This document shows, piece by piece, positions 46,839-46,953 of a DNA stretch of 64,000 nt (positions within the stretch are counted from its first letter, which is position 1; every line of letters starts with the position of its first letter). Where the stretch lies: assembly GCF_003334355.1 (NCBI RefSeq), contig NZ_QOWP01000004.1; one strand, written 5' to 3'. This DNA comes from Escherichia coli (lineage in GTDB: Bacteria; Pseudomonadota; Gammaproteobacteria; Enterobacterales; Enterobacteriaceae). The notes beneath the pieces are model-generated. The model was not told the origin of the DNA and ran no database searches. It saw only the letters and a program-made list of their open reading frames with translations. A program made the translations under genes and the position numbers.

Positions 46839-46865
46839 AAAAAAACCTGCCGGAGCAGGTTTTTT
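46839..46865 (-). terminator. Rho-independent terminator immediately after azuC (bidirectional appearance)
   Basis: Hairpin acctgc-cgga-gcaggt flanked by A7 upstream and T5 downstream on plus strand. Confidence 0.75.
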
Positions 46866-46866
46866 G

Positions 46867-46953
46867 TTATCGGAACATATTGCCTGGCGGTACGTCTTTG
46901 AACGTCTTGCAATAGTTATTGAACATACTTTTCAGTATTTTGCGCAGTTTCAT
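46867..46953 (-). CDS. azuC: Small protein AzuC (28 aa), encoded by the dual-function AzuCR (IsrB) RNA
   Basis: Minus-strand ORF translating MKLRKILKSMFNNYCKTFKDVPPGNMFR; too short for the ORF track. Confidence 0.85.
   Translation of the reverse strand: MKLRKILKSMFNNYCKTFKDVPPGNMFR

What the first reader, a model, noticed from the sequence alone, without database searches (positions are those of the whole stretch)
46839..46953. 28-codon ORF azuC with its own terminator, below the ORF-track threshold
The minus-strand ORF MKLRKILKSMFNNYCKTFKDVPPGNMFR is followed immediately by a strong hairpin with a T-run. It corresponds to the AzuC small protein, reported to be carried on a dual-function RNA (AzuCR). 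It is a reminder that functional small ORFs in this window are invisible to length-filtered ORF calls.
Basis: partly seen in the sequence, partly recalled or inferred. Interest (0 to 1): 0.3.

Follow-up and report, generated by a model that had tools for sequence, protein, structure and literature searches.

The report
Known azuC small-protein gene (AzuCR RNA)

Summary
On the minus strand an ATG at 46953 opens a 28-codon ORF (MKLRKILKSMFNNYCKTFKDVPPGNMFR, stop TAA 46869..46867). One base later comes a strong hairpin with a 7-T run (46865..46839). The DNA is 100% identical to many complete E. coli genomes where RefSeq annotates azuC. It aligns without gaps to K-12 MG1655, where both the CDS azuC (b4663) and the ncRNA azuR (b4434) are annotated. 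The only coding difference from K-12 is a synonymous Ile6 codon. The protein passes the NCBIfam AzuC equivalog model (75.9 bits, cut-off 30).

The full unit is larger than the reported span. It includes two CRP-consensus sites, a sigma-70 promoter, the published start site (46995), a 42-nt leader with the FnrS pairing site and GGAG, the ORF, and the terminator.

In 58 of 80 yecJ-bearing Enterobacteriaceae species the ORF sits upstream of yecJ. Variation falls on third codon positions (dN/dS about 0.1) and ATG/GTG starts are kept, which independently shows it is translated.

Published work (Raina et al. 2022) shows AzuC activates GlpD and the RNA represses cadA and galE.

Verdict: already known, low interest.

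The parts
47036..47051 (-). CRP site I, a perfect TGTGA-N6-TCACA centred at about -48.5 from the start site
   Evidence: Pattern search. The half-sites are invariant across 41 species while the 6-nt spacer varies freely. Predicted CRP sites in the promoter and CRP repression are reported in PMC8915982 (Fig. 1A legend, citing Hemm 2010).
47024..47029 (-). -35 hexamer TTGATT
   Evidence: Promoter scan. Nearly invariant in alignment A2.
47006..47021 (-). CRP site II, TGTGA-N6-TCATA (1 mismatch), centred at about -18.5 and overlapping the spacer and the -10
   Evidence: Pattern search; conserved in A2. Its position fits repression by promoter occlusion (inference).
47002..47007 (-). -10 hexamer TATTAT, 16-nt spacer from the -35, ending 7 nt before the start site
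   Evidence: conserved in A2.
46832..46995 (-). AzuCR (IsrB/IS092/AzuR) transcript. The 5' end 46995 equals K-12 1988001. The 3' end is 46837 by the RefSeq ncRNA feature, or 46832 for the published 164 nt.
   Evidence: The start-site coordinate is from the PMC8915982 Fig. 1 legend. The K-12 ncRNA b4434 spans 1987843..1988001. The ungapped alignment gives window = K-12 - 1941006.
46978..46984 (-). FnrS pairing site CACCUGU (AzuCR nt 12-18, 25-31 nt upstream of the ORF)
   Evidence: RNAduplex of the leader against the K-12 FnrS 5' end GCAGGUG gives 7 bp. This matches the position stated in PMC8915982. Most other genera have CACCUGC, which would pair perfectly.
46961..46964 (-). Shine-Dalgarno GGAG, 7 nt before the ATG
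   Evidence: GGAG is present at the same spacing in 57 of 58 orthologous loci (GGGG in one).
46867..46953 (-). azuC CDS, 28 codons plus TAA
   Evidence: Entropy by codon position is 3.56/6.04/21.1 and dN/dS is about 0.10.
46882..46911 (-). Best predicted pairing region with the cadA mRNA (AzuCR nt 85-114, codons 15-24), lying inside the CDS
   Evidence: Windowed RNAduplex against K-12 cadA -80..+60 pairs it with cadA -16..+16, covering the SD and AUG, at -29.3 kcal/mol. 2 of 100 dinucleotide shuffles do as well. The paper states that the pairing region lies within the coding sequence and near the cadA ribosome binding site.
46839..46865 (-). Intrinsic terminator: A6-CCUGC / UCCG loop / GCAGG-U7
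   Evidence: Fold at -16 kcal/mol, z = -4.9. The stem is invariant in 41 species while the loop and the downstream flank vary.

Best explanation
The locus is azuCR, a short, independently transcribed gene between yecR and yecJ.

**Transcription.** A sigma-70 promoter (-35 TTGATT, -10 TATTAT) starts transcription at 46995. An intrinsic terminator ends it at about 46837-46832, giving an RNA of about 160 nt. Two CRP sites flank or overlap the promoter, one at about -48.5 and one over the spacer and -10. cAMP-CRP therefore represses the gene when glucose is absent.

**Protein function.** Ribosomes load at GGAG and the ATG at 46953 and make the 28-aa, +6-charged amphipathic helix AzuC. [quoted passage not shown]

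**RNA function.** The same RNA (AzuR) base-pairs, through a segment inside its own coding region, with the cadA ribosome binding site and with galE. It represses both. Translation and pairing therefore compete.

**Control by FnrS.** Under anaerobiosis the 5' end of the FnrS sRNA pairs with CACCUGU in the leader and blocks AzuC synthesis.

**Basis.** Shown here: sequence identity, the anatomy, selection on the protein code, complementarity to FnrS and cadA, and amphipathicity. Taken from the literature: the GlpD interaction, the repression assays with compensatory mutations, CRP repression, Hfq/ProQ binding, and ribosome occupancy. Inferred: CRP acts by promoter occlusion.
For: **Identity.**
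- 5,420 of 5,426 complete E. coli genomes carry the region. The listed 100% matches are annotated azuC, flanked by yecR and yecJ.
- K-12 annotates the CDS azuC b4663 and the ncRNA azuR b4434 at the homologous position.
- The alignment to K-12 is ungapped and 98% identical, with one synonymous change (Ile6 ATA vs ATC) in the CDS.
- NCBIfam NF033642 stress_AzuC scores 75.9 bits against a cut-off of 30.

**Translation.**
- Across 52 distinct CDS sequences, summed column entropy by codon position is 3.56/6.04/21.1. Variable columns number 9/10/24 of 27, and dN/dS is about 0.10.
- GGAG is kept at fixed spacing. The start codon is ATG, or GTG in some lineages. ORF length is kept at 27-29 aa.
- This is the only small ORF of 371 in the window with both an SD and a terminator.
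- The literature reports SPA-tag detection and ribosome binding to the RNA (PMC8915982), and azuC is listed among the sORFs most strongly induced by severe acid stress in a Ribo-seq study (PMC10746267).

**Regulation.**
- Two of the window's three CRP-consensus matches lie in this promoter.
- Their half-sites are invariant in 41 species while the spacers vary.

**RNA function.**
- The FnrS 5' end is complementary to nt 12-18, exactly where the paper places the pairing.
- The best cadA duplex covers the cadA SD and AUG and lies within the azuC CDS at -29.3 kcal/mol.
- Compensatory-mutation tests are reported in PMC8915982.

**Protein.**
- The helical hydrophobic moment of residues 1-20 is 0.53, against 0.24 +/- 0.12 for shuffles (1.3% of shuffles as high). 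Net charge is +6.
Against: Nothing contradicts the identification. The caveats concern the RNA function.

- The cadA duplex energy is matched by 2 of 100 shuffled AzuCR sequences. It was also computed against K-12 cadA, because cadA lies outside this window.
- No single galE site stands out in my simple duplex scan.
- Across genera, synonymous sites in the cadA-pairing codons (pS 0.54) vary no less than those in the N-terminal codons (pS 0.43). There is therefore no cross-genus signature of an RNA-level constraint on the pairing segment.
- No Rfam family covers this RNA, so a covariance-model membership test was not possible.
- No expression data exist for this particular strain.
Confidence: 0.94

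Rival explanations
1. The RNA works essentially only as the mRNA of the small protein AzuC. On this view the AzuR riboregulator activity on cadA and galE is marginal, depends on overexpression, or is a recent Escherichia-specific addition rather than a selected function of the locus.
For: Across 52 loci from many genera, synonymous divergence in the cadA-pairing codons (pS 0.54) is not lower than in the N-terminal codons (0.43). The cadA duplex energy is reached by 2 of 100 shuffles. No distinct galE site appears. The published repression assays used overexpression plasmids, and repression is stronger when translation is blocked.
Against: PMC8915982 reports compensatory mutations restoring repression of both cadA-gfp and galE-gfp, and higher cadA-gfp expression in a chromosomal azuCR deletion. 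The best predicted cadA duplex covers exactly the cadA SD and AUG. Overall synonymous divergence of azuC (0.49) is lower than that of the adjacent yecJ (0.65) in the same genomes, which allows for some RNA-level constraint.
Confidence: 0.12
2. It is a purely noncoding sRNA (IsrB/IS092) and the 28-codon ORF is fortuitous.
For: The RNA was first predicted as an sRNA gene (Chen 2002, cited). The window holds 371 comparable small ORFs by chance.
Against: Variation shows strong three-base periodicity and dN/dS is about 0.1. The SD, the ATG/GTG start and the ORF length are conserved over 58 loci. The protein matches the NCBIfam equivalog. The literature reports a tagged protein, ribosome binding to the RNA, and azuC among the acid-induced sORFs of a Ribo-seq study.
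Confidence: 0.01
3. azuC is an upstream leader ORF or attenuator that controls the downstream gene yecJ by regulated read-through of the terminator.
For: In all 58 loci that have azuC, it lies on the same strand 66-123 nt upstream of yecJ.
Against: The terminator between them is strong and its stem is invariant. No conserved alternative (antiterminator) structure was found by alifold. yecJ exists without azuC in Salmonella, C. koseri, the C. freundii group, Buttiauxella and one Escherichia lineage. The peptide sequence itself is under purifying selection, unlike typical leader peptides. The literature describes a discrete 164-nt RNA.
Confidence: 0.03

Closest known systems
AzuC / AzuCR (IsrB, IS092; azuC b4663 and azuR b4434) of E. 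coli K-12
   Same: Identical 28-aa protein. The same promoter, CRP sites, leader, SD and terminator. The same yecR-azuC-yecJ synteny. Ungapped alignment at 98% identity over 331 nt.
   Different: One synonymous codon differs (Ile6 ATA vs ATC). One base differs at -3 of the promoter. Three adjacent bases differ in the non-contacted spacer of CRP site I (CAC vs TGT). None of these is expected to change function.
SgrS/SgrT of E. coli (dual-function sRNA)
   Same: A short RNA that both base-pairs with mRNAs and encodes a small membrane-acting protein of carbon metabolism (PMC8915982).
   Different: In SgrS the coding and pairing regions are separate and both act on the same pathway. In AzuCR the pairing segment lies inside the ORF, so the two activities compete, and they act on different pathways. 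There is no sequence relationship.
VcdRP of Vibrio cholerae and Spot 42/SpfP of E. coli (CRP-repressed dual-function RNAs)
   Same: All are CRP-repressed. Each encodes a very small protein (29 aa and 15 aa). VcdP, like AzuC, activates a metabolic enzyme (PMC12612679).
   Different: They are unrelated in sequence and differ in targets and partners: citrate synthase for VcdP and CRP for SpfP, against GlpD for AzuC.

Membership tests
AzuC small protein (NCBIfam NF033642, equivalog) | Score above the curated cut-off of the family HMM | tested here: met
   75.9 bits against a cut-off of 30, E = 1.3e-21, covering profile positions 1-26 of 26.
AzuC small protein (NCBIfam NF033642, equivalog) | Protein of about 27-28 aa identical or near-identical to K-12 AzuC (YP_002791245.1 / WP_010723106.1) | tested here: met
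   tblastn gives 28/28 identity to the K-12 and ATCC 8739 loci. The RefSeq CDS is annotated under the 100% DNA matches.
AzuC small protein (NCBIfam NF033642, equivalog) | Located between yecR and yecJ, on the same strand as yecJ | tested here: met
   yecR lies at 47216..47539 (+), azuC at 46867..46953 (-) and yecJ at 46501..46752 (-).
AzuC small protein (NCBIfam NF033642, equivalog) | The ORF is actually translated | not testable with these tools
   Indirect support here comes from codon-position periodicity, dN/dS of about 0.1, and a conserved SD and start. Direct evidence comes from the literature only: the SPA tag and ribosome binding to the RNA (PMC8915982), and azuC among the acid-induced sORFs of a Ribo-seq study (PMC10746267).
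AzuC small protein (NCBIfam NF033642, equivalog) | [quoted passage not shown] | tested here: inconclusive
   Amphipathicity is supported: hydrophobic moment 0.53 against 0.24 +/- 0.12 for shuffles, and charge +6. Membrane localisation and GlpD binding cannot be tested here (literature: PMC8915982).
AzuCR / IsrB dual-function RNA | Own sigma-70 promoter and a start site homologous to K-12 1988001 | tested here: met
   The -35, the -10 and the start-site base are identical to K-12, with one upstream difference at -3. The start-site coordinate is from PMC8915982.
AzuCR / IsrB dual-function RNA | Intrinsic terminator directly after the stop codon, giving an RNA of about 160 nt | tested here: met
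   Hairpin at -16 kcal/mol, z = -4.9, followed by U7. The span 46995..46832 is 164 nt.
AzuCR / IsrB dual-function RNA | CRP binding sites in the promoter (CRP-repressed) | tested here: met
   One perfect and one single-mismatch consensus site at 47036..47051 and 47006..47021, conserved in 41 species. The repression itself was not testable.
AzuCR / IsrB dual-function RNA | Leader complementary to the 5' end of FnrS, 25-31 nt upstream of the ORF | tested here: met
   FnrS nt 1-7 GCAGGUG pairs with AzuCR nt 12-18 CACCUGU. The position matches the paper.
AzuCR / IsrB dual-function RNA | Segment inside the CDS that pairs with the cadA ribosome binding site | tested here: met
   AzuCR nt 85-114 pairs with cadA -16..+16 at -29.3 kcal/mol. 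2 of 100 shuffles do as well. K-12 cadA was used.
AzuCR / IsrB dual-function RNA | [quoted passage not shown] | tested here: inconclusive
   Several alternative duplexes of about -28 kcal/mol appear and none stands out.
AzuCR / IsrB dual-function RNA | Binding to Hfq and ProQ | not testable with these tools
   Literature only (PMC8915982).
Any Rfam RNA family | Covariance-model match at the gathering score | tested here: not met
   No family reaches its threshold at the locus. With permissive settings only terminator-driven sub-threshold hits appear: STnc370 at 33.4 of 54 bits on the + strand, and rsmX at 23.4 of 56 bits. No Rfam 15 family matched this RNA in either search.

The most novel reading that the evidence does not exclude
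The most novel reading not excluded is that the conserved, ancestral function of the locus is the protein together with its CRP control, and in most genera the FnrS site. The cadA/galE riboregulator activity would then be a later Escherichia-specific overlay.

The grounds are these. azuC is present, under purifying selection, in at least ten genera: Escherichia, the Citrobacter amalonaticus/sedlakii group, Enterobacter, Lelliottia, Leclercia, Kosakonia, Silvania, Pseudescherichia, Pseudocitrobacter and Huaxiibacter. [quoted passage not shown] Synonymous sites in the cadA-pairing segment vary freely between genera. By textbook phenotype, several of these genera are lysine-decarboxylase negative; that is my own knowledge and was not tested here.
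Probability: 0.4. Interest if true: 0.3.

Novelty: already known. Interest (0 to 1): 0.08.

Why it matters
For the scan it matters only as a positive control: a reader working from raw sequence correctly recognised a real 28-codon gene that length-filtered ORF calls miss. The gene, its RNA, its regulators (CRP, FnrS) and its targets (GlpD, cadA, galE) are all published and annotated in RefSeq, so nothing new follows for E. coli biology.

A modest by-product is the comparative picture built here. It could help someone working on how dual-function RNAs evolve. It comprises the distribution over 58 of 80 yecJ-bearing species, invariant CRP half-sites, SD and terminator, a 27-aa form outside Escherichia and C. 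amalonaticus, and no extra synonymous constraint on the pairing segment.

Tried and rejected
- **Query too short.** The search for homologous proteins and the search for related loci both refuse a 28-aa query. I anchored the cross-species search on the neighbouring gene yecJ instead, which also revealed where azuC is absent.
- **Terminator scan.** The generic promoter/terminator scan did not report the terminator. Direct folding shows the hairpin is real.
- **Unrestricted RNAduplex.** Running the whole RNA against targets produced meaningless end-to-end duplexes. An earlier version timed out. I replaced it with a windowed scan plus shuffles.
- **galE pairing.** It could not be singled out.
- **K-12 coordinates.** My first guess for the cadA coordinates was wrong and was corrected. 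An exact-string anchor of the CDS in K-12 failed because of the one synonymous difference, so I used an alignment.
- **Papers not held.** Hemm 2010 and Weaver 2019 are not in the paper library. Their content is cited only through PMC8915982.
- **Rfam.** No family matches this RNA.
- **Rejected readings.** The 48-aa TTG-extended ORF is rejected because its start lies upstream of the transcription start. The overlapping 35-aa TTG ORF (46805..46912) is rejected because it runs through the terminator and has the wrong periodicity. The leader-peptide-for-yecJ reading is also rejected (see the rival explanations).

Full report
**1. The observation**

Reading the minus strand gives GGAG (46964..46961), seven bases, then ATG at 46953..46951. 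Twenty-eight codons follow, translating to MKLRKILKSMFNNYCKTFKDVPPGNMFR, with TAA at 46869..46867. One base later comes AAAAAACCTGC-TCCG-GCAGGTTTTTTT (46865..46839).

The hairpin folds at -16 kcal/mol, against -5.2 +/- 2.2 for dinucleotide shuffles (z = -4.9, none of 200 as good). The generic terminator scan missed it. My reading, untested, is that the A-run and T-run pair with each other and are counted into the stem, leaving too short a T tail. The element is symmetric and folds nearly as well on the + strand. That symmetry also explains a sub-threshold, terminator-driven Rfam hit to STnc370 on the + strand.

The ORF listing shows the frame as a 48-aa ORF from TTG 47013, but that TTG lies upstream of the transcription start (see section 2).

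A 28-codon ORF alone is unremarkable, since the window has 371 ATG ORFs of 20-59 aa. This is the only one that combines an SD-like motif with a hairpin plus T-run downstream.

**2. Identity**

A 551-nt query around the ORF matches 5,420 of 5,426 complete E. coli genomes. The 100% matches include ATCC 8739, strain C and BLR(DE3). They carry the RefSeq features yecR, 'azuC: stress response protein AzuC' and yecJ.

In K-12 MG1655 the homologous stretch carries the CDS azuC (b4663, 1987873..1987959) and the ncRNA azuR (b4434, 1987843..1988001). The alignment to K-12 over 331 nt is ungapped and 98% identical, so window coordinate = K-12 coordinate - 1941006. The differences near the gene are:
- a single CDS difference, Ile6 ATA instead of ATC, which is synonymous;
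- one base at -3 of the promoter;
- three adjacent bases in the spacer of the upstream CRP site.

The protein matches the NCBIfam equivalog model NF033642 'stress_AzuC' at 75.9 bits (cut-off 30). No Rfam family covers the RNA.

**3. Anatomy of the whole unit**

Raina et al. 2022 (PMC8915982) place the AzuCR start at K-12 1988001, which is window 46995. That position lies 7 nt downstream of a -10 TATTAT (47007..47002). The -10 is separated by 16 nt from a -35 TTGATT (47029..47024).

The 3' end is 46837 by the RefSeq feature, or 46832 for the published 164 nt. The leader is 42 nt.

Two of the only three matches to the CRP consensus TGTGA-N6-TCACA (up to 1 mismatch) in the 64-kb window lie in this promoter:
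- a perfect site at 47036..47051, centred at about -48.5;
- a one-mismatch site at 47006..47021, centred at about -18.5, over the spacer and the -10.

The paper reports CRP-mediated repression and predicted CRP sites in this promoter. That the downstream site acts by occluding the promoter is my inference.

**4. Independent evidence that the ORF is a protein-coding gene**

The 28-aa query was too short for the protein search tools. I therefore anchored a scan of 100,044 species genomes on the neighbouring gene yecJ.

Of 80 yecJ loci, 58 carry an AzuC homologue 66-123 nt upstream of yecJ on the same strand. They come from Escherichia (including E. albertii and E. whittamii), the Citrobacter amalonaticus/sedlakii group, Enterobacter, Lelliottia, Leclercia, Kosakonia, Silvania, Pseudescherichia, Pseudenterobacter, Huaxiibacter and Pseudocitrobacter.

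azuC is absent where a different gene lies upstream of yecJ: Salmonella, C. koseri, the C. freundii complex and Buttiauxella. It is also absent in one Escherichia lineage (L004). There a deletion removes yecR and azuC up to the stop codon, keeps the terminator, and leaves ftnA adjacent.

Over 52 distinct coding sequences:
- summed column entropy by codon position is 3.56, 6.04 and 21.1;
- 9, 10 and 24 of 27 columns vary;
- pooled pN/pS is 0.16 and Jukes-Cantor dN/dS is about 0.10.

GGAG is kept at constant spacing in 57 of 58 loci. The start is ATG, or GTG in some Enterobacter and Lelliottia. ORF length is kept at 27 aa outside Escherichia and C. amalonaticus, 28 aa in Escherichia and C. amalonaticus, and 29 aa in Pseudocitrobacter. 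The sequences are related, so the pooled numbers are not independent samples. The three-base periodicity is nevertheless unambiguous, and it rules out the two other frames.

Residues 1-20 have a helical hydrophobic moment of 0.53, against 0.24 +/- 0.12 for shuffled sequences. The peptide carries a net charge of +6. Both fit the published amphipathic, membrane-associated helix.

The literature answers it. Raina et al. cite detection of SPA-tagged protein and ribosome binding to the RNA. A 2023 Ribo-seq study of acid stress reports azuC as one of the two sORFs most strongly induced at pH 4.4 (PMC10746267).

**5. Evidence on the RNA function**

The 41-species alignment shows that the following are invariant or nearly so, while CRP spacers, the terminator loop and the downstream flank vary:
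- the CRP half-sites;
- the -35 and -10;
- a leader block ATAACACCTG(C/T)ATAACA;
- GGAG;
- the terminator stem.

The stem is invariant, so it gives no covariation evidence either way.

The 5' end of K-12 FnrS (GCAGGUG) is complementary to AzuCR nt 12-18 (CACCUGU, window 46984..46978). The paper places the pairing there, 25-31 nt upstream of the ORF, and supports it with compensatory mutations. Most other genera have CACCUGC, which would replace the G-U pair with G-C.

A windowed duplex scan against K-12 cadA (-80..+60) picks AzuCR nt 85-114 (window 46911..46882, codons 15-24) paired with cadA -16..+16. That covers the cadA SD and AUG, at -29.3 kcal/mol. Two of 100 dinucleotide shuffles of AzuCR do as well. 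This agrees with the paper's statements that the pairing region lies inside the coding sequence and near the cadA ribosome binding site.

For galE, no single site stands out.

Across genera, synonymous divergence in the pairing codons (pS 0.54) is no lower than in the N-terminal codons (0.43). azuC overall (0.49) is somewhat lower than yecJ (0.65) in the same genomes. I therefore see selection on the protein, the promoter, the leader and the terminator. I see no specific cross-genus signature on the pairing segment.

**6. Mechanism**

Three parts are shown here: a CRP-site-flanked sigma-70 promoter, an RNA of about 160 nt ending at an intrinsic terminator, and a translated, conserved, amphipathic 28-aa product.

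Five parts come from PMC8915982:
- AzuC binds GlpD at the inner membrane and increases dehydrogenase activity;
- the RNA represses cadA and galE by direct pairing;
- translation and pairing interfere with each other;
- FnrS represses AzuC synthesis;
- the RNA binds Hfq and ProQ.

One part is inferred: CRP represses by occupying the site over the -10.

**7. Comparison, novelty, verdict**

This is a member, not merely an analogue, of the AzuC/AzuCR family. Every defining feature that could be tested was met. The exceptions are galE pairing (inconclusive) and the wet-lab properties (not testable).

It resembles SgrS/SgrT, Spot 42/SpfP and VcdRP only in being a dual-function RNA of carbon metabolism.

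The finding is correct and already known, and interest is low. The only mildly new by-product is the comparative picture. [quoted passage not shown] It also hints that the protein function and CRP control (and, in most genera, the FnrS site) are the conserved core, while cadA/galE pairing may be lineage-specific.

Noticed in passing
L004:1234-2000 (Escherichia sp. MOD1-EC7003): This Escherichia lineage has lost yecR and azuC. Similarity to the window resumes exactly at the last base of the azuC stop codon, so the terminator and the yecJ upstream region are kept and ftnA becomes the upstream neighbour.
   Followed up: partly
window 47042-47044: CRP site I differs from K-12 by three adjacent bases, all inside the 6-nt spacer (CAC here, TGT in K-12), while both half-sites are intact. 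Across 41 species the spacer is free and the half-sites are invariant, which is the pattern expected of a real protein-binding palindrome.
   Followed up: partly
loci L003-L082 (yecJ-anchored set): AzuC homologues occur in 58 of 80 yecJ-bearing species from about ten genera, always 66-123 nt upstream of yecJ. Outside Escherichia and C. amalonaticus the protein is 27 aa (no C-terminal Arg). Pseudocitrobacter has a two-codon insertion (MKQRMRKILK...). Several Enterobacter and Lelliottia loci use GTG. This looks broader than the published 'limited number of enteric bacteria'.
   Followed up: yes
window 46978-46984 and 46846-46860: The leader motif (C)ACCUG(U/C) that FnrS targets has the same sequence as the 5' arm of the terminator (ACCUGC). 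The FnrS seed GCAGGU has the same sequence as the terminator's 3' arm. It is unknown whether this reflects an alternative leader-terminator pairing, FnrS access to the terminator, or coincidence.
   Followed up: no
window 46873-46895 (alignment A2 columns 188-210): RNAalifold proposes a small hairpin inside the 3' part of the CDS (GACGUACC...GG..AUGUUC). One of its pairs joins the third position of Val21 to the third position of codon 25. It shows A-U 18, C-G 8, G-C 3, U-G 2 and unpaired 10 of 41. This is weak and confounded by phylogeny, but it is the only hint of covariation in the RNA.
   Followed up: partly
A2 rows Ent_sichuan, Lell_nimip51, Ent_chuanda, E_albertii: These lineages have a divergent leader at the FnrS site (AGUUGUAU or AGAUAUAU instead of CACCUGCAU). 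FnrS control may be lost there or compensated.
   Followed up: no
window 46807-46871 (+): A sub-threshold Rfam hit to Salmonella sRNA STnc370 (33.4 bits against a gathering score of 54) lies on the strand opposite to azuC. It is driven entirely by the symmetric A-run/hairpin/T-run, so the terminator could act in both directions.
   Followed up: partly
window 38229-38244: The third CRP-consensus match in the window is a perfect TGTGA-N6-TCACA about 250 bp upstream of the flhD ORF (37618..37977, minus strand). This is presumably the known CRP site of the flhDC promoter.
   Followed up: partly
window 18211-18518, 32510-32587, 3847-3922, 14233-14275, 50814-51113: Rfam gathering-level hits elsewhere in the window are MicL sRNA (370 bits), C0465 RNA, naRNA4, ES036 and three tRNA genes in a row.
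   Followed up: no
loci L003-L080, azuC vs yecJ: Pooled synonymous divergence of azuC (pS 0.49) is lower than that of the adjacent yecJ (0.65) in the same 52 genomes. This could reflect codon-usage or RNA-level constraint on the short transcript. It is not concentrated in the cadA-pairing segment.
   Followed up: partly
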